Virus record (IMG/VR): IMGVR_UViG_3300031555_010707
Length of the DNA stretch: 64,000 bases
DNA from: a virus
Taxonomy: Duplodnaviria; Heunggongvirae; Uroviricota; Caudoviricetes
Strand: one strand, 5' to 3'
Part shown: piece by piece, positions 11,131 through 54,056 of the stretch
Layout: each line of letters starts with the position of its first letter
How positions within the stretch are numbered: the stretch's first letter is position 1
The notes under the pieces: generated by a model
Databases searched by the model: none
Told to the model about the DNA's origin: nothing
The model's input: the letters and a program-made list of their open reading frames with translations, nothing else
Program-made: the position numbers and the translations under genes

Positions 11131-11143
11131 CCGTGACTCCTCC

Positions 11144-11581: not shown

Positions 11582-11717
11582 GGCTTCTTGACCTCGTTTC
11601 TGGATATTTATTCTTGATCGACGAGTTCACAATACCATAAAAAGTCGGACTTGTCAAGAGGGTTTTCTGCAAATAGGCGGACTTCGGGTGAGCAAAAGGA
11701 TAAATTTTACGAGATAT

Positions 11718-19158: not shown

Positions 19159-19590
19159 TCACTTCTTTCCGTCTGCGATAATAGAGTTTTCTCCGGCATC
19201 GCAAGCTCGCTTGTAGTAGACGCGACCTTCCATTTTGCTTTCCGCCTTCCTCATCGCTCCAAGACACTGCTTTAGCTGATTGACCGCATTGGTTTGAGAC
19301 GCAATCCAGTTCATCAATGGTGTCAGCGTATCAATAATGTCTTTGGCGACTCGGCGGCGTTGGCGAATTTTTCGAAGCTCCACCGCCGCATGAGCACGTT
19401 CATGATACGTCCACTCGCAAAGTTCAATTTCATGAAGCAGATCCTGCGTCTTTTTATCGCAGTAATCCAATTCATTTTGAGCCATTTTGAGGGACTCATT
19501 AGCCAAAGAAAACATATTCAGTGTCTCTTCAATGGACTGGCTCGTTACTTGAGGAGTGAGCTTATCCAGATCGTCAAGCACTGCGTTCAT
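19159..19590 (-). CDS. Hypothetical protein
   Basis: AGGAGG 7 nt upstream of ATG 19590; overlaps the Pnkp stop by 17 nt. Confidence 0.35.
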   Translation of the reverse strand: MNAVLDDLDKLTPQVTSQSIEETLNMFSLANESLKMAQNELDYCDKKTQDLLHEIELCEWTYHERAHAAVELRKIRQRRRVAKDIIDTLTPLMNWIASQTNAVNQLKQCLGAMRKAESKMEGRVYYKRACDAGENSIIADGKK

Positions 19591-27567: not shown

Positions 27568-28080
27568 CGAATCGTGAGGCGAAGCGGCAAATAATAATTC
27601 GGTGCCCTGTGTGCGAGGAACTTAGGGGAAGTTCAGCCTTGGCTGAAGTTCATCCGAAGTTTCGAGCGCACAGCCTGCGGAGGATCTTTGATCCGAAGCA
27701 GGATTTGCCGCGAGCCGAACGAAAGGAGCATTGGGTTTCACTTTCGATTACACCAGAAAGTCACAATCTCCAGAAATTATGTATTCATGTTTACTGGTGA
27801 TTGGTATCTTCATGACGAACTGTGATTGTGAATGCTTCGCAATCTGCATTGTATGGATGAGCTTGAGGATGACAGTGCGGGCCCTGGATACCGGTCGGCG
27901 AAGAGTCGTCAGCTCGTGCTATGACGTGTTGAGATGTCTAACGACCATGCCGGATCTGCTCGGGATGGGCGGATGCTGCAGACTCGACGTTATAAATAGC
28001 GCGATGGCCGCGTTCATCGCCTGATCGCTGAGCGCCTGAAGCCGGGCTGCCGGCTCGCAGGTGCCTCTGGGGCGGGGTAC

Positions 28081-28160
28081 GTCATCCTAACCTTTTGATA
28101 CTCCGGATTACACCTCGAAGCACTTAATCCTTAGAAATAAGAACCAAGTTATACATTGCG
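28081..28160. repeat. Conserved leader element, copy A (a near-identical 50 nt plus ttatacattgc); a second copy lies at 39915..39986
   Basis: gtcatcctaaccttttgatactccggattacacctcgaagcacttaatc versus gtcgtcctgaccttttgttacgccggattacacctcgacgcattcaatc. On the minus strand each copy follows a TGTATAAC/TGTATAAT -10-like box. Confidence 0.6.
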
Positions 28161-28173
28161 AAGTTAAAGGGAA

Positions 28174-33939: not shown

Positions 33940-34220
33940 AGGTTGCACAGCGACCAATCTTCATCTCCAATGTCATGCTGAATTAAGGTGGACATGGAAC
34001 AAGCGTCCTTGCGTGAGCTCCCACAGGCCAAGTGCCATATCTCTCAATGTTCTATTAGCCCTTAATCCCTCTGCGTAATTCGTCTTATGAGTGCATTCCA
34101 TCAGTTAGAAAAACCGATCCTGCGCATGGCGGCTTCTATTCAGTTTTGAAAGGACGTATAAAGCCGCAACGGTAGTCCGTTTTCGCAGCTACGGATGTCT
34201 AATTTGTGCTGCGTCAGCGT

Positions 34221-34294
34221 TGCGCCCGAAGGGAATCGAACCCTTGACCACGCAGTTTCCCCTGCGTGACTCTACCAACTGAGTTACGAGGCGC
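34221..34294 (-). pseudogene. Aberrant tRNA-like gene: good T arm, extra 5' nucleotide, a 6-bp anticodon stem with a 6-nt loop GGGAAA, no encoded CCA
   Basis: T arm AAGGGTTCGATTCCCTT; anticodon arm ACGCAG GGGAAA CTGCGT. Confidence 0.4.
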
Positions 34295-34481
34295 ATAGAA
34301 ACCTCTGATACTTTTTCATCGCTTGTTTTCACAACCCTGAATCAATTAACAGGAAACGGTTTAATGTTATCAGAGGCGAGACGACCTAAGCCTTTTTGCC
34401 GTTAGAAAGCATTATCTTGTCGCCTGGAGGGGCGGATTTTCTCATGCTCCGCCATACAAGGAACCCTGAATCTAACTGGGT

Positions 34482-37083: not shown

Positions 37084-37743
37084 TTAAGTCGCCGCTTCCT
37101 CCTCGGAGCTCTGATTTTTAGATTGGATACGGAAGCCGAAACACACGCCATGCGTGCCGCTCGCGCCGCTGCTGCCGCTGCCGCCACCCGAATGGACAAG
37201 GCCGAAGTTCGCCGTGGAGCCGGTACCCGGAGAACGAAGCCAATAATAACAGTAATCGTTATTATCCACGCCGTATCCCTTTACCCGATTCCGGCGGAGC
37301 TTGTAGATGTCCAGCTGAGTATCTTCAGGCTCCATGTCTTTGATGCGCTGGTTCTTACCGAACATCTGCGTGTAGGACAAGCAAAAGAGCTTGTCTTCGC
37401 ATTCAATGCGTTCACCATTGATACACTGGACAATAGTAGTAGGAATAATGACCGCCTGCAGATCGTCGGGAAGGAGCTCGAAAACCTCCTGGGCATACTT
37501 GCGCATCTTGCAATCACGCCAACCGCCGCGATTGGTATCGCGGTCGTTCATATTGTGAGGTTCTTTCAGACAATCACGGAAAACAATGAACTGTTCTCCC
37601 TTTTCATCATGGGCAACTTCGAGATCGACTCGCTCATCATTCTTGAGCGTAATCGAAATGACGTCTCCGCTCGCAAGAGAATCGAACTCTACGATGTCCG
37701 CCCAAGACACCGTTCTTCCAATCTTGGAAATGACAGAAACCAT
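37084..37743 (-). CDS. Hypothetical protein with a Gly/Ser-rich C-terminus
   Basis: ORF. Confidence 0.4.
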   Translation of the reverse strand: MVSVISKIGRTVSWADIVEFDSLASGDVISITLKNDERVDLEVAHDEKGEQFIVFRDCLKEPHNMNDRDTNRGGWRDCKMRKYAQEVFELLPDDLQAVIIPTTIVQCINGERIECEDKLFCLSYTQMFGKNQRIKDMEPEDTQLDIYKLRRNRVKGYGVDNNDYCYYWLRSPGTGSTANFGLVHSGGGSGSSGASGTHGVCFGFRIQSKNQSSEEEAAT

Positions 37744-38487: not shown

Positions 38488-39630
38488 TCACGGGTCGCCA
38501 CGAAGGTCTGCTCGAATCATTCGGACAAGATTCACCTCGTACTTCTTGTTCAGATGATCGATGACGTAGGTGATGTAGTCCTTCTCGACCATCTTGTAAT
38601 ACGACTTGAGTCCATTTAGTGCGCAGACATCGTGCAGATCCCATTTGATTCCGCGTTTTCTGTCCTGAATGTAATTGGTACACATTGCTTTGAAACGTTT
38701 CTTGGCCTGATACCCTACGGTAATCTGGTTATTCCTGTTCAGCATCAATCCAAGATTCCAGTTACGACCGGAGCTGGAACCGTACCTCGTCTTAGCAGAC
38801 TTGATCTTGAACGGAGCATTGAATCGTGCAAGGGTCGCATCGATTTCCTTCACCATTCCCAAAGGGTCAAATTCGTATCTGCTGGAAATCTGAATATCGT
38901 CTGCGAAACGGGTATAAATAAAGCCCTTCTTGCGAAGAGCGTTGAAAAGGGCATGGTCGATGGGGATCATCATCAGGTTTGTCAGCATTGGAGAAATCGG
39001 AGTGCCTTGCGGAAGACCTCCATTCAGGAAACATAAGTCCATCGCTTTGCTGAGCACCTGCTTTCCCTTTTCGTCCTTCATGATTTCGCTGAAAGGAAAG
39101 ATGATGTCCATCATTCCGAGGATAAACTCGATGGTCGTACTTCCGAAGAAATCGGAGAAGTCTGTCTTTTCGAACCACTTGCTTTCATTCGCCTGATGTT
39201 TCTTCATTGCATCAAGTGTATTGCGATGCTTCACATAGGCAAAAGCGGACGTGTGATACAACGCAAACATCTTATCTTCGAAGATGGACTTGAGTTCCCT
39301 CAGTGCTTCCATCAAAGGTTCATGCGGTGCATTGATCCAGCGAAGGCCGCCAGACTTCTTGGGAATTGGAAAGGTTTCGTAAAGAGAAGCACGCTTTGCG
39401 CCATACAGAGCTTCGTGCTTCTTTACAAACTCCTCTAAGACACGAATCATCGAAGGAATATCCGACCGGCGAACGACATCCTCATTGACTGTTTCATAGA
39501 ACCTGGTGACTGTGGCTGAAACATCCTTTGACTCGGGTGAAATGTTATCGACGTTGACTTCACCCTTCAGGATTTCCTCCAGTGTTATCTGATGGGTTCT
39601 GGGAGTTTGCATTATAGTAATGTAAGGCAA
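38488..39630 (-). CDS. Retron-type reverse transcriptase
   Basis: Collinear with Ec86 RT: HRNTLDAMKKHQANESKWFEKTDFSDFF, GLPQGTPISPMLTNL, YTRFADDIQI and AKTRYGSSSGRNWNLGLML match. TTG start with AAGGAGG 8 nt upstream. Confidence 0.75.
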   Translation of the reverse strand: MPYITIMQTPRTHQITLEEILKGEVNVDNISPESKDVSATVTRFYETVNEDVVRRSDIPSMIRVLEEFVKKHEALYGAKRASLYETFPIPKKSGGLRWINAPHEPLMEALRELKSIFEDKMFALYHTSAFAYVKHRNTLDAMKKHQANESKWFEKTDFSDFFGSTTIEFILGMMDIIFPFSEIMKDEKGKQVLSKAMDLCFLNGGLPQGTPISPMLTNLMMIPIDHALFNALRKKGFIYTRFADDIQISSRYEFDPLGMVKEIDATLARFNAPFKIKSAKTRYGSSSGRNWNLGLMLNRNNQITVGYQAKKRFKAMCTNYIQDRKRGIKWDLHDVCALNGLKSYYKMVEKDYITYVIDHLNKKYEVNLVRMIRADLRGDP

Positions 39631-39965
39631 TGCAAATACCTCCTTTACTCTTCATGATCTGCAATCTAACATATGTGGTGTGCCTGCTGCGCCAGCTGCT
39701 GAGGAGGTGTCTTCCAGGGACTGGGGAGCTTGGGAACTCTGATGCAGGGCGTGCAGGTCTGGGGAGGTCAGGGTTTTGACGTGTCGAGGCGTTCGTTTGC
39801 CTGTGAGATCTTGGTTCTGAGATTGTGCGATGAGCCTCGGGACGTTGTGTGGCGTGAGTGTTCGAGCTGGAGTCGAGCCCTGAAGGCGCCATGGCCACTG
39901 GGAGGCAGGCCTCCGTCGTCCTGACCTTTTGTTACGCCGGATTACACCTCGACGCATTCAATCAA
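39631..39965 (-). ncRNA. Candidate retron ncRNA (msr/msd-like) or structured 5' leader of the RT gene
   Basis: About 330 nt, GC-rich and noncoding, directly upstream of the RT. A TGTATAAT -10 box lies at its upstream end. A candidate a1/a2 pair, gaggtgt ... acacctc, flanks it. Confidence 0.3.
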
Positions 39966-39986
39966 GAGATTGAATTATACATTGCA
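39915..39986. repeat. Conserved leader element, copy B
   Basis: See copy A at 28081..28160. Confidence 0.6.
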
Positions 39987-39996
39987 GATTTAGGTT

Positions 39997-40749
39997 TTAC
40001 TTCAAGAGCTGATGAAGTTCATCAGTAATCTCTTTTACCACTTCTTCAGGCGGAAGAACATAATAGTATCCGTCCAGCGGACTGAATTCAACGGAACACT
40101 CGCCATCGAGACGCAGGAAAGGAACGATGTTGCACTCTGAGGCAGGACAGTGATTAGCGAACCTTCCGCGACGATCTACGGCGCAGAGTCCAGTATTCAC
40201 CGCAGTTCTGAACAGAAGGTTTACAGGTGTAACAGCACCGCGAACGAAAAGAGCCAGCTGTTCGCCCTCGGTCAGATCTTCGCCACCATACAGCTGACTT
40301 CTGGACAGCATACTGACTTTGAGCGTTGTCTTGACCTGTTCCCCATACTTCCGCTTAAATCCGACGGGCACAGAAGTAACGATTTCATGGGGCGTAATCA
40401 TCTTGCGCTCCCATGCTTCGAACAAACTCAGGAAACCGGGGCGATTCTTCAGAGTGTTATCAGCCACATCCGTTTCGTGCTGAGGCTTGAACCAGTCATT
40501 TTCACTGGCATTCAGGAACTGGCAGATATTCGTCTGAGGGAAGAAGTTACTTCCGCGTTCACGGCGGTCACGGCTTTCATTCTCAGGCTCCTGGGCATCA
40601 GCGCAGAACTTTCCAATGCCATCATTCACATAGAAATCGTTCTGCTCAGATGCTTTTCTCCAAAGGAGGTTGATGGGTGTCCGCTCGCCGCTTCGGAGAA
40701 ACTGACCAAAGACCAGATATTCTCCAACGGGAATTTCGGAAATCTTCAT
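39997..40749 (-). CDS. Hypothetical protein
   Basis: 250-aa ORF. Confidence 0.4.
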   Translation of the reverse strand: MKISEIPVGEYLVFGQFLRSGERTPINLLWRKASEQNDFYVNDGIGKFCADAQEPENESRDRRERGSNFFPQTNICQFLNASENDWFKPQHETDVADNTLKNRPGFLSLFEAWERKMITPHEIVTSVPVGFKRKYGEQVKTTLKVSMLSRSQLYGGEDLTEGEQLALFVRGAVTPVNLLFRTAVNTGLCAVDRRGRFANHCPASECNIVPFLRLDGECSVEFSPLDGYYYVLPPEEVVKEITDELHQLLK

Positions 40750-40760: not shown

Positions 40761-41432
40761 TTAAAAAGCGTCGATTGCGTAGCTAAACGCATCGGCCAGG
40801 ATCAGCTTGCGAAGCGGGCCGCCCTTTGCAAAGTTGATAAAGTTGGACACACCCGCCGCTACGATCATTCGAACCGTAGGCGCAACAGACAGGGTGATAT
40901 TGCAGGCGGAAACCGGAGTCTCCTTCTTGGCTTCCTCGTGGGAGAATGCCATAGACTTCAGGAAGGCGTCCACCATTTTTTCATCATTCCATGCGGCAGC
41001 GTAGTGCTGAGCATCGGTCAGACGCATACGGAAATCGAACATGCCTTTGATGAAAGGATTGCCAACGCAAGCCTTGGCGATGTCGCGGCGGAGGTCGATA
41101 TTATCCACACAGAGGAATACATAGCCAGAAAGGCGCTGGTTGGTATAGCCCTTATGTACCAGAACGAGGTCATCCTTCATTTCCGGATTGATCTTGAGCA
41201 GATATTCTGCGACTGCATCAACCTTCATCTTACCAATGTCATCCTGCGTGAACATCTGATTGGCGATATTGTGAGCTTCGACCTTATCGAAGTCGTAAAG
41301 AGTGATCTTCGTCAGGCCAAAGCGAGCCAGGTTTTCAGCGACCGTGGAGCCGATAGCTCCACAGCCGATAATATGAATGCGCTCACGGCACATTTCGGGT
41401 TTGAAGAATTCATAAGACTTGGAAAGATCCAT
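40761..41432 (-). CDS. ThiF/MoeB-family E1-like adenylyltransferase
   Basis: RIHIIGCGAIGSTVAENLARFGLTKITLYDFDKVEAHNIANQ Rossmann fold. GGGAGG 7 nt upstream of ATG 41432. Confidence 0.65.
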   Translation of the reverse strand: MDLSKSYEFFKPEMCRERIHIIGCGAIGSTVAENLARFGLTKITLYDFDKVEAHNIANQMFTQDDIGKMKVDAVAEYLLKINPEMKDDLVLVHKGYTNQRLSGYVFLCVDNIDLRRDIAKACVGNPFIKGMFDFRMRLTDAQHYAAAWNDEKMVDAFLKSMAFSHEEAKKETPVSACNITLSVAPTVRMIVAAGVSNFINFAKGGPLRKLILADAFSYAIDAF

Positions 41433-41445
41433 GACTAAACCTCCC

Positions 41446-41727
41446 TTAGTTTTCTTCGTTGATGATGATACCACCTTGGATGATAACGCGCTTGCCGTTG
41501 ATGTCGAAATATACTTCATCGGTGCTATCGCTAACATCAAACTTGCCCGACCATGATTTAATCATGTCTCCGTCGTAGCTATAGACAGAAACGGTACGAT
41601 TGAGGCCGCCGCCCCAGTTGCTTTCATACGACTTGACAGTGCGCTTCCATCCTTCCGTGCAACCGGTAAGGCAAAAGAGCATCACGATCAGGACGGCAAC
41701 GAGAATGATCTTTTTCATGTGACTCAT
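41446..41727 (-). CDS. Small lipoprotein
   Basis: Signal peptide MKKIILVAVLIVMLFCLTGC with a lipobox. Confidence 0.45.
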   Translation of the reverse strand: MSHMKKIILVAVLIVMLFCLTGCTEGWKRTVKSYESNWGGGLNRTVSVYSYDGDMIKSWSGKFDVSDSTDEVYFDINGKRVIIQGGIIINEEN

Positions 41728-41737
41728 TCCCCTTTTC

Positions 41738-42724
41738 TTAAGTGTCAAATCGATGGTCGCCGAAAATTTCCTTATCCCAGTCTACGGAAGCATTGTTGCC
41801 GCCAAAGTATCCGGGATAGCCCGCCATGCTCATCTGGCTGGGTTCGGCACTGGCCTTTTCGGGATTCTTCGGAGGACGCCCCTTCTTACCCTTGGGCTTC
41901 TCTTCCCCTTTTTCCTTACCCTTGGGCGTGACATTGCCTTTCACGGGCTCGATCTTGGCAGGCTGCTTCACAGGCTCGTCATCATCCATATAGGCCAAAC
42001 GGCTTCCGCCGTAGTTGCCGCCGTAATTACCACCGTAGCTTCCGCCATAGTTTCCTCCATATGCACTGCCCGGAGTATAGGTCTTGCGAGTGACCACATG
42101 GTCGGATTCGGCAATGAAAGATTCGACATCGAATTCATCATTGGCAATGCTGACAACGATGTCCTTATCCTCGTACATGACATTGTTGGCGTAATCGTAA
42201 ATCTTGATGGTGTGATCCAGACGCTTGTTCCAGATCATGAAAATGTAGTAGTCATCATCCTTGAGCTGGGCAAGAATCTGCTGCTGGTGGTTGGTGTCAA
42301 CACCGGAAGGAGAAGTTCCCATGTTGACGTGGGAATGACCCTGCATACGCATGGCGTTATAGTAATCGTCATCCAGAGTCATCATCCACTTCTGATACTC
42401 TTCCTGGTCAGTGTTGACCGTAGAACCGGTGACGGTCTGAGGATAGACCACCACATCGGTAATGATGAAGGTATCTTCGTCTTCGCGCTTAACGGTGCCA
42501 TGCCATGCGACCTCGGAATCGAAATGCTTCAGGAGAGTCAGCATCTTGACATAGGCCATCGGCGTGAAAACCACATATGCCTTCGTATCATCCTCACCGG
42601 TGTAATCAAAGCTCTTGGTAAAGGTAATCTTGCCATCGGACATCTTCGCATCCGTGACATTCTTGCGGAACTCCTCGACCATATTGTCGATATATTCCTT
42701 GGTCAGAAAAATCGGCTTAGACAT
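41738..42724 (-). CDS. JAB/MPN (JAMM) metalloprotease-domain protein with a low-complexity GGNYGG-repeat and Lys-rich C-terminus
   Basis: HSHVNMGTSPSGVD is HxHx7Sx2D. AGGAGG 6 nt upstream of ATG 42724. Confidence 0.6.
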   Translation of the reverse strand: MSKPIFLTKEYIDNMVEEFRKNVTDAKMSDGKITFTKSFDYTGEDDTKAYVVFTPMAYVKMLTLLKHFDSEVAWHGTVKREDEDTFIITDVVVYPQTVTGSTVNTDQEEYQKWMMTLDDDYYNAMRMQGHSHVNMGTSPSGVDTNHQQQILAQLKDDDYYIFMIWNKRLDHTIKIYDYANNVMYEDKDIVVSIANDEFDVESFIAESDHVVTRKTYTPGSAYGGNYGGSYGGNYGGNYGGSRLAYMDDDEPVKQPAKIEPVKGNVTPKGKEKGEEKPKGKKGRPPKNPEKASAEPSQMSMAGYPGYFGGNNASVDWDKEIFGDHRFDT

Positions 42725-44180
42725 TTTCTTCCTCCTTCTTGGCATCCAAGCTGTTGAGATATTCGAGAGCTTCGACAGGAGTCACGTCTCGACCATCGGG
42801 CAGTCGGATGATGCGGTGGGTACTGGTAAATACATCGTTCAGGAAATAGCGGACAGTGTGAGCTTCGGCAAAATTCAAGCTCTTTGCGGAAGCCATGCAC
42901 TGCTCGATGGCACCTATGAGATTTCCGTCCCGGATCATCCTGTTGATGTACGATCTGTAATTACCCAAGCAGGCAAAATGCTGGATATGCGGATTCGGGA
43001 TATAATCGATGAACTCGTCTCCATACTCGTAGAAACGATGGGCCGATGCTTCTCCGCGCAGATCGATAATGTAGTTCGCGCACATCTTAACCTTCAGGAT
43101 GGGTTCGTCCGAGAAAATGGCATCCAGCATCTTGCGTCGAACCGCAATATCCTCAAACTGAGGAAGGTAATCGTACCCGGTGTACAAGCAAGAACCGGTT
43201 TTGCGAATGTAGGTATTGTATTGTTCGGGGTCGAATATTTCGAAGAAGGTTTTGACAGTAAACTCCATCTGACGCCCCCGCACACGAACGGGCATCAGGT
43301 TTCGGTTGCAGACAAAATAGTCGATCAGTTCAGATTCATCAGATGCAGCTTCGATTGCCATTTCCTGGCCGGCCAGACGGATGTTCAAGTCATCGAGCAT
43401 GGTCAGATATTCATGATACCTTCTATTCAGATTATCAATCTGATTCTGGTAATCAGTGATCTGATCTTTAGTGCGCTGCATTTCTTCACGGCGACCGATC
43501 TTATCAAAATCGCCGATAACGTTCTTAATCATGTGCTCACGGAAATCGATTCGATCCGCCAGCAGGGAGAGAATACGCTCATACTCAGTAGCATTACGGA
43601 ATGTAAGCGCATCAAGCAGGGAACCTTCCACTTCATCAAGCGGAATATCGGAGAAAAACCAGGGAAAAAGACGAGGAGTCAGGGACTGGAGGAGATGGAA
43701 GTTACAGAGCGTCAGGCCTTCGCACACAATGAAAGTTTCCTTGTCCTGCTCATTGATGTAAAAGCGGGCATTGAGCTTTCCACGATTCTGTACAAAAACC
43801 TGAAGGTCTTTTGCTTCATGGTAATTAGGGAATACCTTGGTAAAGCCGGATTCAGTGTTATCGTACAGGCTCAGGATGGCGGCATTGTCATTGGACGGGC
43901 CTACAAGATAACGAATCGAGAGGGTGTTGGCACCAAAGGGCACCGGAGAGATGCGCGTAAAAACGCCTGCGAGATTGGTAAAGGTATGCGAACCATATCC
44001 ATAGGAATCGAAACTGCGAATAGACAGGTTTATGTCCGCACCGTTGGAGCGTCTATGAAGCAGGGCTCTCAGCGTTGCCAGAAAAGACCTGTCGTCATTA
44101 AAGTAATCGCCGTGAATCTTAAAGAATTCATTGGCGATACCCCGTACCAACGGAGTCTCTCTGATCTTCTTATTAAACAT
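42717..44180 (-). CDS. Hypothetical protein
   Basis: 487-aa ORF. Confidence 0.45.
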   Translation of the reverse strand: MFNKKIRETPLVRGIANEFFKIHGDYFNDDRSFLATLRALLHRRSNGADINLSIRSFDSYGYGSHTFTNLAGVFTRISPVPFGANTLSIRYLVGPSNDNAAILSLYDNTESGFTKVFPNYHEAKDLQVFVQNRGKLNARFYINEQDKETFIVCEGLTLCNFHLLQSLTPRLFPWFFSDIPLDEVEGSLLDALTFRNATEYERILSLLADRIDFREHMIKNVIGDFDKIGRREEMQRTKDQITDYQNQIDNLNRRYHEYLTMLDDLNIRLAGQEMAIEAASDESELIDYFVCNRNLMPVRVRGRQMEFTVKTFFEIFDPEQYNTYIRKTGSCLYTGYDYLPQFEDIAVRRKMLDAIFSDEPILKVKMCANYIIDLRGEASAHRFYEYGDEFIDYIPNPHIQHFACLGNYRSYINRMIRDGNLIGAIEQCMASAKSLNFAEAHTVRYFLNDVFTSTHRIIRLPDGRDVTPVEALEYLNSLDAKKEEENV

Positions 44181-44278: not shown

Positions 44279-44899
44279 TTACATCACAGTGATGGTGTCG
44301 CTGATGGCCTTCTTCTCTTCCTTGACTTCGGTCAGAGCAGCTTCGAACTGCTTCTCAACCTTGTTCAGGTTCAGAACGGCGACGCCGATATGCTCTTCCG
44401 CCCACTTCTTCGCATCCTCGGTGCCATCGGGGATCATCATGGTGATGGTCGCCTTGCCGTCCTTGGAAGACTGCGGGCCGAAAGCAGCGCCGTAGGCGTT
44501 GATGGAACCGGTGCCCTTCGCGGTAGTACCGATGCGGAAAACCTCCTCCTTCTTGCCGGCTTCACCTTCGAACAGGCTCAGGGTCTTGGGACGATACTTT
44601 TCCAGAGTCTTGATGTCGGCCAGGGAATGAGCAGACTCGATGACACAGGCAGAACCCGCAATCTTGATGTAGGCGGCGTTGTCAGCCTTGACGACGTTCA
44701 ACAGGTAGCACTTCTCGGTGATACCGAAATCAGCGAAGGTCTTGTCCAGATCGCCGGCGCCCAGAGTGGAGCCATCCAGAGAGGTCATGCCGACGGTGTA
44801 GTCGATATTGTTGTTCTCCAGGGCGGTACGCAGGGTGGTGTTTTCGTCGATGATAACAGACTGGCGGGACAGATTGTTGCCGATAGTAACCTTAATCAT
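44279..44899 (-). CDS. Hypothetical protein; the N-terminal 75 aa look beta-grasp-like
   Basis: AAGGAGA upstream; MIKVTIGNN... Confidence 0.4.
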   Translation of the reverse strand: MIKVTIGNNLSRQSVIIDENTTLRTALENNNIDYTVGMTSLDGSTLGAGDLDKTFADFGITEKCYLLNVVKADNAAYIKIAGSACVIESAHSLADIKTLEKYRPKTLSLFEGEAGKKEEVFRIGTTAKGTGSINAYGAAFGPQSSKDGKATITMMIPDGTEDAKKWAEEHIGVAVLNLNKVEKQFEAALTEVKEEKKAISDTITVM

Positions 44900-45275
44900 G
44901 GTGAAATCTCCTTTACTTCATGCAGATTATGTAGTGATGCCCTTCATGGGCTTTAGAGGCAGGGGCAGAACCTTGGGCTGAAAACCGGGCTGGCTGGTGG
45001 GAGAACGAGAACGCTGCTTCATGTCAGTTCCTTTCTGGACATCTTGTCCGTAGATGGAGAAAACAGTGTCGTGATTACAGACGGTGTGGATACCTCTGTA
45101 ACCTTGGCTCTGCGTTTTTCACGGGCTTGCCACCGTCTGCTCATGCAGGCCGCATTAAGGCTGAAAAATCAGAGGGATTCAGCCTGATTGGCGAACCCCT
45201 CTGAACCACAAACGTCATTTATTCATATATACCAGCGGAATAGAGCCGCCAGTTCGCAACAGCAATCTTAGGCAT

Positions 45276-50390: not shown

Positions 50391-51263
50391 TGACATTCCC
50401 TCCATGTTTCTTGATTTATGGACTTGAGCCCATACTACACGGCACCTGCCCTTCAGCCGATGCCGTGGGTGTATGGGTTCAAAAAGGACGCACACACCTT
50501 GCGGCATATGCGTCCTGGAACTTCTATTCTTTTCACGTCTACAAACCTTCAAGATAAGCCCATCAAAGTGCATTTCCTCTCCATTGGAGCACCCATGCCA
50601 TTACCCTTCAGCCCATTACATACCTTCATTGAAGGCTACGCAATGTTTGTGGCTTAAGGCAATGTTTTGCGGCACCTTTTGGGCACCTTCTAAGCCGCAC
50701 CATTCAGCTTGCTTTCGCATATCTCCTGCCTAAGAGCATTCGACCGTCACTCCCGGTAAAGAGTGCATCTGTTGCCGTCCTATACGCCCGGCACGCCGTC
50801 CGTCTACACCAGACGACACCACCCATACTTGTCTTGCTTCGCTCAAGGGTTCCTCATGGAGTCTGCAAGAGTCCTTTGGGTAACTGGCGTCCACATTTAG
50901 AGTGTGGCACTCCCATCTGCGTTTGCACAGGCTTTGGACTGTTTCGTGCGATCACTCACACGAAGCCGCATTAGAGTAATGGGCGGAAATTTTGCTCGCT
51001 TCGCCTTCGCTCAGTCGTGCCGATGCCGCCCTTCACCGGCTAACCGAATGAAGGTTGTAGCACATCCGATATGGTGCCTTACGCACACTCAAGCAGTACG
51101 CGCATCAGGTGTACCCAGGTTGCCCCTCAAGGGGTTGAGGCTCACCCTTCAGGACGATCACGAAAAGTTACACCGGAGGAGATGGACAGCCCATCGCAAC
51201 TGCGGGTTACTGCATCCATCAATGCTTGGGGGTGGTCGTTCGTGCCGTTCCTGTGTTGGGCGG

Positions 51264-51470
51264 CGTTGCCGTCCTACCGCCTTATGAGCGGCGGCGTTGT
51301 GTCGTGACGGCTTGCCGTGGGGCGCGTGTGCGCCGTGGGGCGTTGCCGTCCTACCGCCTTATGAGCGGCGGCGTTGTGTCGTGACGGCTTGCCGTGGGGC
51401 GCGTGTGCGCCGTGGGGCGTTGCCGTCCTACCGCCTTATGAGCGGCGGCGTTGTGTCGTGACGGCTTGCC
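51264..51470. repeat. About 2.6 copies of a 78-nt GC-rich tandem repeat
   Basis: gttgccgtcctaccgccttatgagcggcggcgttgtgtcgtgacggcttgccgtggggcgcgtgtgcgccgtggggc repeats with period 78; the third copy is truncated. Confidence 0.8.
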
Positions 51471-51503
51471 GCCCACGTTCGCCGCGCCCTGTGTCCAGAC
51501 ACA

Positions 51504-51567: not shown

Positions 51568-52593
51568 TTATCCGTTCTGTTGTGCCGCCTTGCGTTCACG
51601 GTAACGCCGTGCGCGTTCTGCCTGCGTTGCCTTATCCTGTGCCGCCTTGCGTTCTGCGCCTGCCGCCGTTCTGCCGCCGTTCGCCGCGCCCTGTGCCGCC
51701 GCCGCCGTTTCTGCCGTGCGGATAAGCTGCACAAATTCGGGGGAATGTTCGCGGATGTATTCGGCAATCTTGCCGCGCATGATCGCAATATTGCGGTTGA
51801 CGGTTGCCAATTCGCGCCCCATGTTTTCCGCGATTTGCCGCTGTGAATAGCCGCGCCCCAACAATTCCGCGATTCTGCGCTGTGTAGGCGTTACAATGCG
51901 CATAGCGTCCGCGATTGCCGCGCCCAAACGCGCCGCCGTTGCGGCGTCCATTTCGCCGCCGTCCGTGGGCGTCCATTTTTCGCCGCCGCGAATGATGGCA
52001 GAAATAGCGGTATTGATTGCAACCAGGTCGCCGCCGCCGTCCGTCAAAAATTCGGTACTGATTTCATATTCCGTTGCCGCCCGCTGTGAATGAATGTAGG
52101 CATTCAGCGCAATAAATGCCGTGTGATATTGTTCGCCAATGGTCGCGCCGTCAACCAGTCCGTTATAATGAACTGTTTCGTGTGTGCGCTTGTCCGTGTG
52201 GTCATAGCCTGTTATGAGCGCGGTTTTGGCAATGCTGTAAAAATCCTGCGTGTCGGCGGAATAGTCTGCGATAACGGCGTTAATCCGTTCGGGCGTTTCC
52301 GCGCCCACCAAACGCGCATTGATAGCTGCAAATTCGCGTTCGATTCTGTGCTGTGTGGGCGTTCCCTGTCGCTTGATTGCGTTAATTGCGGTACGCCGTC
52401 CCACCATAACCGCGCCGCGCATGATTCCGGCGGCGGTTGCCGTGGACGGATATACACGAACGGTTGCGCCGTGGGGCTTGTTGATTTCGGCGGCGTTGTG
52501 CGCCGTCCGTGCGTCCGTTGCGTTGATGGTGTATTCCGTGGTGGTCTGGTTGCCGTCTGCGTCCGTGGTGGTAATGGTATAGATGTATTCCAT
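51568..52593 (-). CDS. Protein with a C-terminal sigma-70 region-4-like HTH; Thr-rich N-terminus; GC-rich codon usage foreign to the rest of the window
   Basis: TPTQRRIAELLGRGYSQRQIAENMGRELATVNRNI. GGAAGGA 6 nt upstream of ATG 52593. Confidence 0.4.
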   Translation of the reverse strand: MEYIYTITTTDADGNQTTTEYTINATDARTAHNAAEINKPHGATVRVYPSTATAAGIMRGAVMVGRRTAINAIKRQGTPTQHRIEREFAAINARLVGAETPERINAVIADYSADTQDFYSIAKTALITGYDHTDKRTHETVHYNGLVDGATIGEQYHTAFIALNAYIHSQRAATEYEISTEFLTDGGGDLVAINTAISAIIRGGEKWTPTDGGEMDAATAARLGAAIADAMRIVTPTQRRIAELLGRGYSQRQIAENMGRELATVNRNIAIMRGKIAEYIREHSPEFVQLIRTAETAAAAQGAANGGRTAAGAERKAAQDKATQAERARRYRERKAAQQNG

Positions 52594-53167
52594 GGTGTTT
52601 CCTTCCTGCCGCCGTGGGCGGCTATACGTTGTTTGTGTGGGACAACGTAAGCCCATGATGTTTGATGGATAATTCCACCATGAACATTGTATCACAGGGA
52701 ACGGCAAAATGCAATAGTTGAATCAAGAATTGTTTTCCTGTGTGGTGAAAAATGGTGTTAAATGTGTTTTACGTCAATTCACAATTTTGCAATATTTCCA
52801 CCGACACAACGCCGCGCCCCACATGCCGCCGTTGTACAGGTTGCCGCCGTGGGCGTTGATCGCAACGCCGCCGCCGTGGTGCAATTCCTATGTTACAATT
52901 CGGCACTATGTCACATGGGGGCGTATTTCCATCTTTTCAAGCCCCCACGCCGCACCATTTTCTTGAAGTTGATTCATCTCCCAGACCCATTCTTTTTCTC
53001 ACCGAGCCTTCTCTCAACCAACCTGGAGCAACAGCTTTTCCTTTCGAGAGAGTCTGCTGAAATGCTGACGATCTCAATCAAGATTTTTAGTGGATCATCA
53101 ACGTGTCCAGAAGACGAAGAATAAATGCAGATTTCAAAAGAAATTTAATAATTCACACAATTTCCTA

Positions 53168-53240: not shown

Positions 53241-54056
53241 ATGGCAGAGATCATCCGAGTAGACTTCACGAAGGGAAAGCAGGACGCAGTAATCGATGTA
53301 ACGAAGATCAGTTCTTCCCGACGCAAGCTGGAGTGTGGATTGATCCAGCCGGCAACCGAGGACGTTGTTCCCGAGCTTGCAGAAGAGCATTCCTCTGAAC
53401 CGATTAAGAGCACCGAGGACATCGCTCGCATCTCAGCCTACTTGATTGAGCAGAAGCGCTACCGCGACAACATGCTCTTCATCGTAGGCATCAACTTCGG
53501 ACTCCGCGTCAGTGATCTGATTCAACTGAGGTTCAGCAACCTGATCGACGAGAGCTTCTCCTTCAAGACTACCTTCCCGGTACTGGAGAAGAAGACCAAG
53601 AAGACCCGCAAGGTTCAGAAGAACCGCTACATCACGATTAACGAAGCCGTGATGGACGCCGTGGAACTGTACCTGCAGCACACCCCCCGGAAGCTCGACG
53701 ACTACATGTTCAGGAGCGAAAGCAACCGAGGTAGTAACGAGAACAAGCCTATGAGTCGGATGTCCGTAGATCGGATGCTGAAGGAGGTTGCTCAGACTCT
53801 GGGCATCGAAGCAAGGGTCGCAACCCATACGCTGAGAAAGACCTTCGGTTATCACCAGATGGTGATGAGCGGCAATGATCCCCGCAAGCTCCTGCTCCTC
53901 CAGAAGATATTCGGACACTCCTCCTCCGTACAGACCCTGGACTACATCGGTATCACCCAGGAGGAGATTGAAGACGCTTACCTCGGCCTGAACCTCGGCA
54001 GCAAGAATTGCTATAAGCGGTTCGGTCAGATCGGCGAAGTGAAGGCCGAGGCGTAA
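53241..54056 (+). CDS. Small tyrosine recombinase (phage-integrase family)
   Basis: ATHTLRKTF (HxxR) and LGHSSSVQTLDYIGIT (the catalytic Tyr region). Confidence 0.65.
   Translation: MAEIIRVDFTKGKQDAVIDVTKISSSRRKLECGLIQPATEDVVPELAEEHSSEPIKSTEDIARISAYLIEQKRYRDNMLFIVGINFGLRVSDLIQLRFSNLIDESFSFKTTFPVLEKKTKKTRKVQKNRYITINEAVMDAVELYLQHTPRKLDDYMFRSESNRGSNENKPMSRMSVDRMLKEVAQTLGIEARVATHTLRKTFGYHQMVMSGNDPRKLLLLQKIFGHSSSVQTLDYIGITQEEIEDAYLGLNLGSKNCYKRFGQIGEVKAEA

What the first reader, a model, noticed from the sequence alone, without database searches (positions are those of the whole stretch)
40761..42724. ThiF-like E1 plus JAB/MPN metalloprotease gene pair in a phage, with no recognisable ubiquitin-like partner and a prion-like GGNYGG tail
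A minimal E1 (Rossmann GCGAIGS, 223 aa) and a JAMM protease (HSHVNMGTSPSGVD) are separated only by a small lipoprotein gene. E1 plus JAB pairs operate in ubiquitin-like conjugation and deconjugation (Bil and CBASS Cap2/Cap3-like systems) and in sulfur-carrier pathways (CysO/Mec, TtuBCD). No nearby ORF ends in GG. Either the Ubl is encoded as a precursor that the JAB processes, or the substrate is a host Ubl, or the Ubl lies elsewhere; the N-terminal beta-grasp-like 75 aa of 44279..44899 is a weak candidate. The JAB protein ends in a GGNYGG x4 low-complexity segment followed by a KGKEKGEEKPKGKKGRPPK tract, which is unusual for JAB enzymes. This is a candidate anti-defence deubiquitinase or deconjugase (for example reversing Bil-type tail-fibre modification or CBASS cGAS-target conjugation) or a novel phage Ubl system.
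Basis: partly seen in the sequence, partly recalled or inferred. Interest (0 to 1): 0.7.

Follow-up and report, generated by a model that had tools for sequence, protein, structure and literature searches.

The report
Phage ubiquitin-like cassette joined to retron
The E1 and JAB genes are real and belong to a conserved gut-phage gene cassette that does encode its own ubiquitin-like protein (with an unusual ...Asp-Asn-Ala tail instead of Gly-Gly), plus a probable E2-like protein, and that is always linked to a retron-like reverse transcriptase, a combination not described before.

Summary
There is a 223-aa ThiF/E1 gene (40761-41432, -) and a JAMM/MPN+ gene (41738-42724, -) with an invariant E...HxHx7Sx2D motif, separated by a lipoprotein gene.

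The claim of "no ubiquitin-like partner" is wrong. Residues 1-75 of the 44279-44899 product fold as a ubiquitin/SUMO-like beta-grasp. In about 85% of 120 related loci this domain is a separate 75-aa gene that ends ...KADNA.

The conserved order is Cdom - Ubl - 487-aa protein - JAB - E1 - structured ncRNA - reverse transcriptase. The Ubl/487-aa/JAB/E1 core has the same order as bacterial BilABCD. The 487-aa protein is coiled-coil, has weak UBC/RWD-like fold hits and carries an invariant N-x7-C-L motif. The lipoprotein gene is a local insertion, and the GGNYGG tail is a variable low-complexity spacer.

The RT's upstream RNA looks like a retron msr/msd: a covarying a1/a2 stem followed by an invariant G.

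Most likely this is a phage-encoded Bil-like Ubl conjugation pathway. JAB would mature and remove the Ubl, a UBA5-like E1 would activate it, and the E2-like protein would carry it. The pathway is genetically coupled to a retron.

Target and biological role are unknown. A role in phage-host conflict is inferred only from neighbouring RNA-repair and NAD-salvage genes. The family is large, unannotated and uncultured.

The parts
44675..44899 (-). Ubiquitin-like domain (residues 1-75 of the 206-aa product of 44279-44899). Its tail is ...VVKADNA.
   Evidence: AF2 model, mean pLDDT 90, with beta-beta-alpha-beta-beta topology over residues 1-70. Foldseek against PDB hits SUMO/Smt3, ISG15, ubiquitin, NEDD8 and B. 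fragilis ubiquitin, with target TM 0.55-0.67 over about 72 columns and probability 1.0. It is a stand-alone 73-78-aa ORF in 73/85 loci, and 50 of those end VKADNA. Weak Pfam hits to DUF2604 (9/22 members) and TUG-UBL1 (3/22).
44279..44674 (-). Partner domain 'Cdom' (residues 76-206, plus the stop codon), fused here to the Ubl. In most relatives it is a separate gene of about 130 aa lying just upstream of the Ubl gene.
   Evidence: A76 of the fusion corresponds to A2 of the stand-alone Cdom (MAKITIAG...). No match in Pfam, PHROGs or PDB. The K-Y-R-P motif (K101-P104) is nearly invariant.
42717..44180 (-). 487-aa protein (p487), the E2-like candidate. It has an N-terminal alpha/beta domain, a 65-residue coiled-coil helix (213-278), and a C-terminal alpha/beta domain with invariant N396, H398, C404 and G406 (motif PNPHIQxxxCLGNY).
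41738..42724 (-). JAMM/MPN+ metalloprotease (328 aa from M8). The catalytic core is about residues 50-215. It is followed by a G/Y-rich spacer, a K-rich AT-hook-like KGRPPK segment, and a conserved C-terminal D-(Y/W)D...IFG..RFDT peptide.
41446..41748 (-). Small lipoprotein gene. It is an insertion at the JAB-E1 junction and is not part of the conserved cassette.
   Evidence: phrog_2316 at 3.7e-20 and weak DUF5052. Found in 0/85 related loci. Other genomes have nothing there, or a different small gene.
40761..41432 (-). Minimal ThiF-type E1 (223 aa). Its closest solved relative is UBA5.
   Evidence: Pfam ThiF at 3.2e-27. A profile of 24 orthologues against PDB finds UBA5 at 3.7e-16, then Uba1, Uba6, MoeB, TcdA, MccB, ThiF and Cap2. 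Invariant residues: G23-C-G25..G28, D47, D49, N55, N58-Q59, K70, D110, S175-A-C177.
39997..40749 (-). 250-aa protein with a weak DUF6273/Hoc-like match. It is a variable occupant of the E1-to-ncRNA interval.
   Evidence: Present in 43/85 loci at 22-61% identity.
39657..39989 (-). Retron-like ncRNA of about 333 nt. a1 is ATCTGCAAT (39989-39981), followed by an invariant G (39980). Two conserved hairpins follow, then a variable region, then a2 ATTGCAGAT (39665-39657), which ends 26 nt upstream of the RT start codon.
   Evidence: Not matched by Rfam.
38488..39630 (-). Retron-like reverse transcriptase (380 aa).
   Evidence: Pfam RVT_1 at 1.8e-16. NCBIfam retron St85 RT at 3.1e-46, 158 bits, below the 235-bit cut-off. 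PADLOC RT_II-A at 1.1e-42. Present next to the cassette in 84/85 loci and inside it in L116.

Best explanation
The E1 and JAB genes are two parts of a conserved phage cassette that encodes a complete ubiquitin-like (Ubl) modification pathway of the Bil type. The cassette is genetically joined to a retron-like element.

Shown here:
- The gene set and its order.
- The Ubl fold.
- The intact JAMM motif.
- ThiF membership of the E1.
- The non-Gly tail.
- The fusion/split relationship between the Ubl and Cdom.
- The covarying RNA stem upstream of the RT.

Inferred, step by step:
1. In this genome the Ubl is translated as a Ubl-Cdom fusion. The JAB protease cuts between Ala75 and Ala76. This releases a 75-residue Ubl ending ...Lys-Ala-Asp-Asn-Ala and a Cdom whose N-terminus matches that of the stand-alone protein. 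In genomes where the Ubl is a separate gene, JAB trims the occasional extra residues (A, R, TSK).
2. The minimal UBA5-like E1, presumably a homodimer, adenylates the Ubl C-terminus. It may hold the Ubl as a thioester on the invariant Cys177.
3. The Ubl passes to Cys404 of the 487-aa protein. That protein's C-terminal domain has UBC-like topology and an Asn-x7-Cys-Leu motif like the HPN...C motif of E2 enzymes. Its N-terminal domain and coiled coil would select the target.
4. The Ubl is attached to one or a few protein targets. Cdom is the leading candidate for a partner or target.
5. JAB also reverses the conjugation.
6. The adjacent RT and its msr/msd-like RNA make a branched RNA-DNA product. 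This product either senses or controls when the cascade acts, as in retron systems where RT-msDNA controls an effector, or is itself regulated by the cascade.

The biological role is most likely phage-host or phage-phage conflict. This is inferred only from the neighbourhood.
For: Cassette conservation. tblastn of the window proteins against 85 loci found p487, JAB and E1 in 85/85, RT in 84/85 and the Ubl/Cdom protein in 81/85, all co-oriented and in one order. The same holds in 35 MAG loci, wherever they are long enough. This persists although p487 diverges to 24-30% identity. The flanking genes are not conserved: p398, p118 and p124 occur in 3-7 loci and the lipoprotein in 0.

Ubl. K71, D73, N74, A75 and A76 are invariant in fused forms. 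Stand-alone genes end ...DNA, with occasional extra residues.

JAB. The motif is invariant and aligns to Rpn11.

E1. It passes the Pfam ThiF cut-off. UBA5 is the best solved relative, and Cys177 lies within about 2 residues of where UBA5's SLPTTMG segment places its catalytic Cys (the position of UBA5 Cys250 is from my own knowledge).

Precedents. The order Ubl-E2-JAB-E1 is that of BilABCD, where JAB pre-processes the Ubl (PMC10557695; PMC11601596). A Ubl fused to a partner and released by the operon's own JAB is shown for BubAB.

Retron linkage. The a1/a2 stem shows many compensatory changes and is followed by an invariant G. Hairpin 2 has compensatory changes in 7/7 pairs. The RT scores best against retron models. 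In L116 the ncRNA+RT module lies between JAB and E1.

Conflict-type neighbourhood. The window also carries Pnkp/RNA ligase, RlaP, Thg1, a second RNA ligase, a CCA-adding enzyme, 17 tRNAs, NAMPT, a Prs-like gene and an isochorismatase.
Against: - No biochemical step was tested.
- The E1 has Asn58 where MoeB, ThiF and UBA5 have the phosphate-binding Arg of the N-x-x-R motif. Its adenylation chemistry may therefore differ.
- No Ubl known to be conjugated by an E1 ends in Asp-Asn-Ala. It is also open whether Ala75 or Asn74 is the reactive end.
- All 120 loci come from one broad group of uncultured phages of about 100-130 kb. Part of the synteny, the RT linkage in particular, could be inherited gene order rather than functional coupling. 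The E1-to-RT distance varies from 0.3 to 2.6 kb, and it is about 6.7 kb in L095.
- A second, orphan copy of the ncRNA lies 11.8 kb away. This suggests the RT also has a life of its own.
- No target was identified.
Confidence: 0.6

Rival explanations
1. Sulfur-carrier pathway. The beta-grasp protein is thiocarboxylated by the E1, in the manner of ThiS/ThiF, MoaD/MoeB, CysO/Mec+ or TtuB/TtuC. It would donate sulfur, for example to thiolate the phage's many tRNAs. JAB would act only as a maturation protease.
For: The E1 is small and scores against ThiF, MoeB and TcdA models. JAB plus sulfur-carrier pairs are known (PMC1779556). The phage carries 17 tRNAs and many tRNA-repair genes.
Against: - There is no Gly-Gly tail.
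- The cassette and its 8-kb flanks contain no ThiG/ThiH/MoaE/CysM, rhodanese, or TtuA/ThiI-type gene.
- The fold matches are to ubiquitin, SUMO and ISG15, and none of the top 50 is ThiS or MoaD.
- The best E1 relative is UBA5, not ThiF or MoeB.
- A conserved 487-aa protein with an invariant Cys is unexplained by this model.
Confidence: 0.08
2. Stand-alone counter-defence deconjugase. JAB exists to strip host Bil-type Ubl or CBASS cGAS conjugates. The E1 and the other genes would be unrelated or decoys.
For: The JAB active site is intact. The neighbourhood is rich in counter-defence-type genes. Host Ubl-based defences exist (PMC10557695, PMC10097602).
Against: - JAB is never found without its own Ubl, p487 and E1 in 120 loci.
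- In this genome its most obvious substrate is the phage's own Ubl-Cdom fusion.
- It has no detectable similarity to Cap3/BilC models in PADLOC.
- The two roles are not mutually exclusive.
Confidence: 0.1
3. Non-conjugating E1 chemistry on a C-terminal Asn, in the manner of MccB. JAB removes Ala75 and exposes Asn74. The E1 then converts it via a succinimide to a nucleotide-linked or otherwise modified end. The Ubl could become linked to a nucleotide or nucleic acid, such as the retron product, rather than to a lysine.
For: Asn at position -2 is the most conserved tail residue. MccB is among the E1 hits at 2.9e-12. The canonical Arg is replaced by Asn58. The JAB tail is basic and AT-hook-like. 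An RT-ncRNA is always next door.
Against: - Ala75 is itself almost invariant, and 50 of 73 stand-alone Ubls end exactly at it.
- The fusion junction reproduces both native termini if the cut falls after Ala75.
- The MccB N-terminal peptide-clamp domain is absent from this 223-aa protein.
- UBA5 scores better than MccB.
- There is no direct evidence for any nucleic-acid link.
Confidence: 0.07
4. Two independent systems that merely sit side by side. One is a Ubl cassette of any function. The other is a separate phage retron-like element whose neighbourhood is inherited lineage synteny.
For: - All loci belong to one broad phage group.
- Variable genes and distances separate E1 and RT.
- In L095 the RT is about 6.7 kb away.
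- The window has a second ncRNA copy far from the cassette.
- The 13 retron types of PMC7736814 contain no ThiF, JAB or ubiquitin term.
Against: - The linkage survives divergence of p487 to about 25% identity and turnover of all flanking genes.
- In L116 the ncRNA+RT module has moved to between JAB and E1 rather than away.
Confidence: 0.15

Closest known systems
BilABCD (bacterial ISG15-like) anti-phage operons, types I and II
   Same: Both have four components in the same order: Ubl, E2, JAB peptidase, E1. In both, the JAB pre-processes a Ubl that can carry extra C-terminal residues. Neither has an E3 gene. In both, the Ubl is structurally closer to ubiquitin/SUMO than to ThiS/MoaD (PMC10557695; PMC11601596).
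   Different: - This cassette is encoded by phages, not found in bacterial defence islands.
- It gives no hit to PADLOC models other than the Rossmann part of Cap2 E1-E2 models.
- The E1 is a 223-aa single adenylation domain. BilD has an inactive adenylation, active adenylation and Cys-domain architecture.
- The E2 candidate is 487 aa with a coiled coil and lacks the CEHH residues.
- The Ubl tail is D-N-A, not a conserved Gly.
- It has two extra conserved partners, Cdom and a retron-like RT+ncRNA.
Type I Bub (6E.1) operons: BubAB Ubl-E2 fusion cut by the JAB domain of BubCD
   Same: The Ubl is translated fused to a pathway partner and is released by the operon's own JAB peptidase, exactly at the end of the Ubl tail. 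The Ubl-Cdom fusion in this window has that logic.
   Different: - The cut in Bub follows a conserved Gly.
- The fusion partner in Bub is the E2.
- In Bub the JAB is fused to the E1.
- Bub works through oxyester intermediates and has a DUF6527 serine protease.
- None of these features is seen here. Cys177 and Cys404 are invariant instead.
UBA5-UFM1 (eukaryotic minimal E1)
   Same: UBA5 is the best solved relative of the E1 (3.7e-16). Both are short E1s consisting of a single adenylation domain. In both, the candidate catalytic Cys lies inside the adenylation domain, just before the S-x-x-T-T segment (UBA5 Cys250 is from my own knowledge).
   Different: Only residues 18-90 align significantly. 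There is no UFM1-interacting or UFC1-binding tail. The Arg of the NxxR motif is replaced by Asn. The Ubl and the E2 candidate are unrelated in sequence to UFM1 and UFC1.
Retrons (RT + msr/msd ncRNA + effector), closest to type II-A / St85-like RTs
   Same: - The RT scores best against retron models.
- A structured RNA of about 330 nt lies upstream, closed by a covarying a1/a2 stem with an invariant G directly after a1. That is where retrons place the branching G (PMC7736814).
- The RT+ncRNA is linked to a set of accessory genes.
   Different: - It lies below every curated RT cut-off (158 against 235 bits).
- The Rfam msr model does not match.
- The VTG triplet reads NLG, and NAxxH reads DAxxxH with the H kept.
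- It is phage-borne.
- The accessory genes are a Ubl cascade, which is not among the 13 described types.
- There is a second, orphan ncRNA.
- msDNA production has not been shown.
Type II CBASS Cap2 (E1-E2) / Cap3 (JAB)
   Same: Both use E1-type adenylation together with a JAB that reverses or matures. The E1 Rossmann region scores against Cap2 models.
   Different: There is no CD-NTase. E1 and E2 are not fused. A dedicated Ubl is present. The hits cover only about 70 residues of the nucleotide-binding fold.
Lambda/T1 tail-assembly TAPI (Ubl) with TAPK (JAB + NlpC/P60)
   Same: This is the only previously described phage pairing of a beta-grasp Ubl, fused to a C-terminal domain, with a JAB peptidase predicted to release it (PMC1779556).
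   Different: That system has no E1 and lies in a tail module. Its JAB is fused to NlpC/P60 and its Ubl ends in Gly. The present cassette has an E1 and a candidate E2, and it sits among early or accessory genes.

Membership tests
JAMM/MPN+ metalloproteases | Catalytic motif E ... H-x-H-x7-S-x2-D | tested here: met
   E78, H137, H139, S147 and D150 are invariant in 20 homologues. The motif aligns with that of Rpn11.
JAMM/MPN+ metalloproteases | Significant match to a curated JAB model (Pfam JAB PF01398 or Prok-JAB PF14464) | tested here: not met
   No hit at default thresholds. Only sub-threshold hits: Prok-JAB in 3/20 members, best E=0.016, and JAB in 2/20. Rpn11 by phmmer at E=1.9e-4.
ThiF/E1 adenylyltransferases | Match to Pfam ThiF above the gathering score, with the GxGxxG nucleotide loop and the Mg-binding Asp | tested here: met
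   95.7 bits against a cut-off of 28.1. G23-C-G25-x-x-G28, D47 and D110 are invariant.
ThiF/E1 adenylyltransferases | Phosphate-binding Arg of the N-x-x-R(Q) motif | tested here: not met
   This position is an invariant Asn58 (HNIANQ), where UBA5 has NMNR. MoeB has NLQRQ (from my own knowledge).
Thioester-forming E1 (UBA5-like) | Catalytic Cys in the adenylation domain | tested here: inconclusive
   Cys177 is invariant (S-A-C) and lies 5 residues before the segment that HMMER aligns to UBA5 SLPTTMGVVAG. The exact register is uncertain by about 2 residues.
Ubiquitin-like beta-grasp modifiers | Beta-grasp fold of about 75 residues with a flexible C-terminal tail | tested here: met
   The tail is residues 70-75, where pLDDT drops to about 69.
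Ubiquitin-like beta-grasp modifiers | C-terminal Gly (Gly-Gly) as the activated residue | tested here: not met
   The tail is K-A-D-N-A. No Gly occurs in the last 6 residues of any of 73 stand-alone homologues.
UBC/E2 enzymes (for the 487-aa protein) | UBC fold | tested here: inconclusive
UBC/E2 enzymes (for the 487-aa protein) | HPN motif about 8-10 residues before the catalytic Cys | tested here: inconclusive
   P395-N396-P397-H398 and C404-L405 are invariant or nearly so. The spacing from N396 to C404 is 8 residues, as from N77 to C85 in UBE2D2 (UBE2D2 numbering is from my own knowledge). The profile comparison was not significant.
BilABCD | Four genes Ubl-E2-JAB-E1 in one operon | tested here: met
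   The order is the same in 120 loci, if p487 is accepted as the E2.
BilABCD | Sequence membership (defence-system HMMs), multidomain E1, conserved Gly in the Ubl | tested here: not met
   PADLOC gave no hit for Ubl, p487 or JAB. The E1 hits only Cap2-type E1-E2 models, over about 70 residues. The E1 is 223 aa. The tail lacks Gly.
Sulfur-carrier systems (ThiS/ThiF, MoaD/MoeB, CysO/Mec+) | Gly-Gly tail and neighbouring sulfur-transfer or biosynthetic genes | tested here: not met
Retrons | RT of the retron clade | tested here: inconclusive
   The best NCBIfam model is retron St85 RT at 158 bits, below the 235-bit cut-off. PADLOC RT_II-A scores 1.1e-42. The conserved G of region Y and the H of region X are kept, but neither VTG nor NAxxH is present literally.
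Retrons | Adjacent ncRNA closed by a1/a2 inverted repeats, with a conserved branching G after a1 | tested here: met
   There are 19 distinct stems, 99% paired over 8 positions, with 3-6 pair types per position. With shuffled partners the mean is 72% and the maximum 82%. G follows a1 in 31/31. The stems were located by complementarity, so the paired fraction is partly circular. Their fixed position next to the conserved hairpins and the RT start is not circular.
Retrons | Production of branched msDNA | not testable with these tools
   This needs expression and nucleic-acid analysis.
Diversity-generating retroelements | Template/variable repeat pair near the RT | tested here: not met
   No such repeat was found in 36-47 kb or in the whole window. 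The only repeat of the ncRNA region is the second msr-like copy.

The most novel reading that the evidence does not exclude
The cassette is one machine, a new class of retron system carried by phages. Its effector arm would be a ubiquitin-like conjugation cascade with a non-glycine (Asp-Asn-Ala) tail. The RT-msDNA complex would gate, or be tagged by, Ubl conjugation. In the most extreme version the E1 would link the Ubl to the nucleic-acid product itself. Phages would use it to disarm host immunity or to exclude rival phages.
Probability: 0.3. Interest if true: 0.92.

Novelty: new variant of a known kind. Interest (0 to 1): 0.8.

Why it matters
Ubiquitin-like conjugation in prokaryotes has so far been tied to bacterial anti-phage defence (type II CBASS, Bil, Bub). 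If this cassette works as proposed, the following would follow.

- It would be a complete Ubl pathway on the virus side of the conflict.
- It is widespread in animal and human gut viromes. The 487-aa protein has about 2,500 clusters at 50% identity and the JAB has about 2,300 clusters at 90% identity. It is absent from annotated phage genomes, occurring in 1 of 50,697 GenBank records, and that record is unannotated.
- It would widen the chemistry of Ubl activation to a tail without glycine.
- It would add a very small E1 and an unusually large E2-like protein to the known repertoire.
- It would give retrons a new kind of partner.
- It makes several clean predictions that can be tested with recombinant proteins: the cleavage site, the reactive cysteines and the branching G.

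Tried and rejected
1. Family searches. Pfam, NCBIfam, PHROGs and PADLOC scans of JAB, p487 and the 206-aa protein found nothing at default thresholds. Permissive scans of whole alignments gave only weak hints for the Ubl and JAB, and nothing for p487.

2. Sequence searches against solved structures. Profile searches of PDB sequences with the Ubl-Cdom, p487 and Cdom alignments returned only coiled-coil or chance hits.

3. Fold search for p487. Foldseek against PDB with the full-length p487 model gave no match better than E=0.4.

4. Profile comparisons with hhalign:
The local alignment did put PNPH..C on HPN..C.
   - p487 N-terminal against C-terminal domain, Cdom against p487, and Ubl against Cdom: no relationship.

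5. Representative-library search. The search with the p487 profile listed only full-length family members, so it gave family size but no bridge to a known family.

6. Alternative RT types.
   - DGR was rejected because there is no TR/VR repeat.
   - DRT2 or group II intron RT was rejected because retron models score far higher and the RNA has an a1/a2 stem plus G.

7. Plasmid or ICE origin (PRTRC-type cassette) was rejected. The PRTRC ThiF model scores only 34 bits against a cut-off of 145. There is no match in PLSDB. Relatives are IMG/VR viral contigs of 50-130 kb.

8. The lipoprotein as a system component was rejected (0/85 loci).

9. The 'prion-like' tail as a defining feature was rejected. 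It varies in length and composition, and several homologues have a much shorter tail with no G/Y-rich repeats.

10. Literature searches for any described link between retron/RT and ThiF/JAB/Ubl found none.

Full report
**1. What is at the coordinates**

All genes in 38.4-45 kb lie on the minus strand.

- **E1.** The gene is 40761-41432 (223 aa, starting MDLSK, contains GCGAIGS). It passes the Pfam ThiF cut-off (E=3.2e-27, 95.7 bits against 28.1).
- **JAB.** The ORF is 41738-42745. It has no hit in Pfam, NCBIfam, PHROGs or PADLOC at default thresholds. phmmer against PDB sequences finds Rpn11 (E=1.9e-4), with HSHVNMGTSPSGVD laid on HSHPGFGCWLSSVD. In 20 homologues of 45-83% identity, E78, H137, S138, H139, S147 and D150 are invariant, which is the complete JAMM motif.
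- **Lipoprotein.** Between the two lies a small lipoprotein gene (41446-41748; phrog_2316).
- **JAB tail.** It contains G/Y-rich repeats and then a Lys-rich stretch, as described.

**2. The setting**

The window looks like part of a large phage genome. It has:

- 17 tRNA genes;
- a tail-fibre PHROG and an integrase PHROG;
- DnaB and primase;
- an RdRP-like 960-aa protein;
- a dense set of RNA-repair genes: Pnkp/RNA ligase, RlaP, Thg1, a second RNA ligase and a CCA-adding enzyme;
- NAD-salvage genes: NAMPT, a Prs-like gene and an isochorismatase.

Relatives are IMG/VR viral contigs of 50-130 kb. They also occur as MAG contigs from human, ruminant, rabbit and termite guts, mostly binned with Clostridia, and none comes from an isolate. 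There is no match in PLSDB plasmids. Only one unannotated faecal contig among 50,697 GenBank phage records matches.

**3. The pair belongs to a conserved cassette**

Contigs carrying JAB homologues of 53-54% identity already show the array: a protein of about 205-235 aa, one of about 482-491 aa, JAB, E1, and a 380-aa RT.

I ran tblastn with the window's proteins against 85 loci. The results were as follows:

| Component | Loci with a hit |
|---|---|
| 487-aa protein (p487), JAB, E1 | 85/85 |
| RT | 84/85 (the exception is a truncated locus) |
| 206-aa protein | 81/85 |
| 250-aa protein | 43/85 |
| Upstream genes of this window | 3-7/85 |
| Lipoprotein | 0/85 |

Thirty-five further MAG loci give the same picture wherever they are long enough. 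The order persists while p487 diverges to 24-30% identity and the flanks turn over completely. So this is a discrete module. The lipoprotein gene is a local insertion at the JAB-E1 junction, a site that holds other small genes in other genomes.

**4. The missing Ubl is there**

The AF2 model of the 206-aa protein has mean pLDDT 90. It shows a beta-beta-alpha-beta-beta unit in residues 1-70, a less confident linker at about 71-76, and a second domain in residues 77-206.

Foldseek against PDB returns SUMO/Smt3, ISG15, ubiquitin, NEDD8, Caldiarchaeum ubiquitin and the Bacteroides fragilis ubiquitin. These hits span about 72 columns with target-normalised TM 0.55-0.67 and probability 1.0. None of the top 50 is ThiS or MoaD.

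In 37 homologues, K71, D73, N74, A75 and A76 are invariant, directly after the last strand.

The gene structure in the related loci is decisive:

- In 73 of 85, the beta-grasp is a separate ORF of 73-78 aa.
- Fifty of those end exactly ...VKADNA. The rest end KADNAA, KADNAR, DNATSK, KTSNA, KLDNA and similar.
- The second domain (Cdom, about 130 aa, starting MAKITIAG...) is a separate gene immediately upstream.

The window's lineage (the window plus 5 loci) instead has the order Ubl-Cdom, fused in frame. The junction ...KADNA|AYIKIAG equals the full stand-alone Ubl followed by the stand-alone Cdom minus its initiator Met. A cut between A75 and A76 would therefore recreate both native ends.

The occasional extra residues after ...NA in other genomes are what Ubl precursors look like. 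JAB pre-processing of such precursors is documented for BilA, and for the BubAB fusion.

The Ubl is ubiquitin-sized, and its tail KADNA sits where ubiquitin has LRLRGG (my own knowledge). No Gly occurs in the tail of any homologue. That is why a search for GG-ending ORFs fails.

**5. The E1**

A profile of 24 orthologues finds UBA5 as the best solved relative (3.7e-16). It is followed by Uba1, Uba6, MoeB, TcdA, Uba7, MccB, ThiF and Cap2.

Invariant residues include the nucleotide loop, D47, D49, N55, K70 and D110.

Two points stand out:

- The Arg of the N-x-x-R motif (NMNR in UBA5) is an invariant Asn58.
- An invariant S-A-C177 lies five residues before the segment that HMMER aligns with UBA5 SLPTTMGVVAG. 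That places it within about two residues of where UBA5 has its catalytic Cys250 (position from my own knowledge).

The E1 is thus a minimal, single-domain, UBA5-like enzyme that may form a thioester. Its phosphate-binding site is not canonical.

**6. The 487-aa protein**

It is always between Ubl and JAB. In this window its stop overlaps the JAB start by 8 nt.

The family is large and unannotated: 2,474 clusters at 50% identity with E<=1e-3, and the best 150 are all full-length.

The AF2 model (pLDDT 91) has an N-terminal alpha/beta domain, a 65-residue helix, and a C-terminal alpha/beta domain.

Fold evidence is weak:

- Foldseek found nothing.
- Pfam found nothing in 45 members.
- hhalign against four human E2s was not significant.

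In the C-terminal domain the secondary-structure order is helix, four strands, a loop with invariant P-N396-P-H398, invariant C404-L, and then three helices. N396 lies 8 residues before the Cys, as N77 does before C85 in UBE2D2 (numbering from my own knowledge).

I treat p487 as a probable E2-like carrier, at about even odds.

With that reading, the core order Ubl-E2-JAB-E1 is the order of BilABCD.

**7. The JAB tail**

The G/Y-rich repeats differ in number and sequence among homologues and are nearly absent from some. They are a spacer, not a conserved 'prion-like' element.

After the spacer comes a basic segment that reads (K/R)GRPPK in this sublineage. Three of 20 members give weak AT_hook hits.

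The tail ends in a conserved peptide, D-(Y/W)-D...IFG..R-F-D-T. This is likely a docking motif.

**8. The RT and its RNA**

The 380-aa RT scores best against retron models. NCBIfam St85 RT gives 3.1e-46 and 158 bits, below the 235-bit cut-off. PADLOC RT_II-A gives 1.1e-42. It scores much lower against group II, Drt2, Drt3 and AbiA models.

Upstream lies an ORF-free stretch of about 330 nt. Its 5' end (ATCTGCAAT, 39989-39981) pairs with its 3' end (ATTGCAGAT, 39665-39657).

Across loci:

- The same two positions always pair, but with different sequences: CTGCAAT/ATTGCAG, CTGTAAC/GTTACAG, CTGTATT/AATACAG, CTGCGAT/ATCGCAG, AAACAGT/ACTGTTT and others.
- There are 19 distinct stems, 99% paired over 8 positions, with 3-6 pair types per position. 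With shuffled partners the mean is 72% and the maximum 82%.
- A G follows the 5' arm in 31 of 31 cases, and a G precedes the 3' arm.
- The stems were located by complementarity, so the paired fraction is partly circular. Their fixed position, directly before two conserved hairpins and about 35 nt before the RT start, is not circular.
- Hairpin 2 has 7 of 7 pairs with compensatory changes.

This is the retron layout of a1/a2 repeats with the branching G after a1 (PMC7736814).

Against literal membership: Rfam's msr model does not match, and the literal VTG and NAxxH motifs read NLG and DAxxxH, with the most conserved G and H kept.

DGR is excluded because there are no TR/VR repeats.

**9. Is the retron part of the system?**

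For:

- The linkage holds in 119 of 120 loci despite variable intervening genes.
- In L116 the ncRNA+RT module lies between JAB and E1.

Against:

- All loci come from one broad phage group.
- The distance from E1 to RT ranges from 0.3 to 2.6 kb, and is about 6.7 kb in L095.
- The window carries a second, RT-less copy of the ncRNA at 27835-28163. It has its own matching a1/a2 (CTTCGCAAT/ATTGCGAAG) and its own G.

I put functional coupling at about 0.6.

**10. Mechanism proposed**

JAB releases or trims the Ubl to ...DNA. The E1 adenylates it and perhaps holds it on C177. p487 C404 carries it to a target, with Cdom as the prime candidate for partner or target. JAB reverses the conjugation. The RT-msDNA either controls the cascade or is controlled by it.

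The role in conflict is inferred only from the neighbourhood of RNA-repair and NAD-salvage genes.

Rivals considered: a sulfur-carrier pathway, a stand-alone deconjugase, MccB-like chemistry on Asn74, and two unrelated neighbouring systems. They are weighed in their own section of this report.

**11. Comparison and novelty**

The cassette works like Bil, and like Bub in the use of a fusion precursor. It fails sequence membership of either family. It differs in the tail, the E1 architecture, the size of the E2 candidate, the extra Cdom, its phage location and the retron.

No paper in the searchable library connects retrons or RTs with ThiF, JAB or Ubl genes.

I rate it a new variant of a known kind. 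There is a substantial chance (about 0.3) that the retron-Ubl combination is a new class of system.

Noticed in passing
window 27835-28163 (-): There is a second, RT-less copy of the retron-like ncRNA. Its msr-like 5' module is 86% identical over 50 nt to 39914-39963. It has its own a1 (CTTCGCAAT) followed by G (28154), and a matching a2 (ATTGCGAAG, 27843-27835). The middle region differs from copy 1. It lies in a 600-nt ORF-free gap between tRNA-Ser and an isochorismatase gene, next to NAMPT and a Prs-like gene.
   Followed up: partly
window 45102-45161 (-); L001 5605-5663; L017 5579-5633 and 5274-5328; L006 314-382: There are type-P1 twister ribozyme-like matches of 37.5-51.3 bits. All are below the gathering score of 67.2, but E-values reach 8e-9 and the core nucleotides are conserved. 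In the window, L001 and L017, the match lies about 200 nt upstream of the Ubl-Cdom gene. This suggests processing of the cassette transcript.
   Followed up: partly
L116 8900-11650: The gene order here is rearranged. The ncRNA (a1 GGTTGTAAC plus G, a2 GTTACAACC) and the RT (9279-10436) lie between JAB (which ends at 8906) and E1 (10969-11646).
   Followed up: yes
window 41738-42050 (-), JAB residues about 235-335: The basic part of the JAB tail reads KGKKGRPPK, which is AT-hook-like. Three of 20 homologues give weak Pfam AT_hook hits. The extreme C-terminus is a conserved D-(Y/W)D...IFG..RFDT peptide.
   Followed up: partly
window 1682-27567: There is an unusually complete RNA-repair and NAD-salvage set: Pnkp-RNA ligase fusion (19574-21781), CCA-adding enzyme (21763-23133), RlaP (23126-24148), Thg1-like (16643-17704), a second RNA ligase (7473-8549), NAMPT (24606-26099), a Prs-like PRTase (26113-26922) and an isochorismatase (26938-27567). 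In addition, 17 tRNA genes lie at 28-36 kb.
   Followed up: partly
window 51262-51492: Three tandem copies of a GC-rich 77-nt unit (100%, 100% and 82% identity) lie downstream of the sigma/HTH-like gene 51568-52707 (-), in the most GC-rich part of the window.
   Followed up: no
window 34219-34295 (-): ARAGORN reports a tRNA-like gene with an aberrant anticodon loop (a two-base 'ga' anticodon). Rfam tRNA scores it only 34.9 bits.
   Followed up: no
window 39997-40749 (-) and 37084-37743 (-): Two paralogous proteins with weak DUF6273 / Hoc-like (phrog_10993) matches flank the RT. Relatives of the second occur at varying positions on either side of the cassette in 48/85 loci.
   Followed up: partly
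L004 6412-6495: A tRNA gene sits upstream of the p487 gene, about 0.9 kb downstream of the Ubl gene, in this relative.
   Followed up: no
L120 6959-9150: Short fragments of Cdom, Ubl, p487, JAB, E1 and RT are packed into about 2 kb of a 244-kb contig. This looks like a heavily deleted remnant of the cassette.
   Followed up: no
L001 12328-12388; L004 509-579: RAGATH-18 (52.7 bits) and RAGATH-16 (69.2 bits) RNA motifs occur above their gathering scores near the cassette in relatives. RAGATH-18 is known as the guide RNA of IS607 TnpB (PMC11061315). It is not present in the window.
   Followed up: no
window 53241-54056 (+): A tyrosine-integrase-like gene (phrog_216, 4.8e-43) lies at the point where gene orientation switches.
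   Followed up: no
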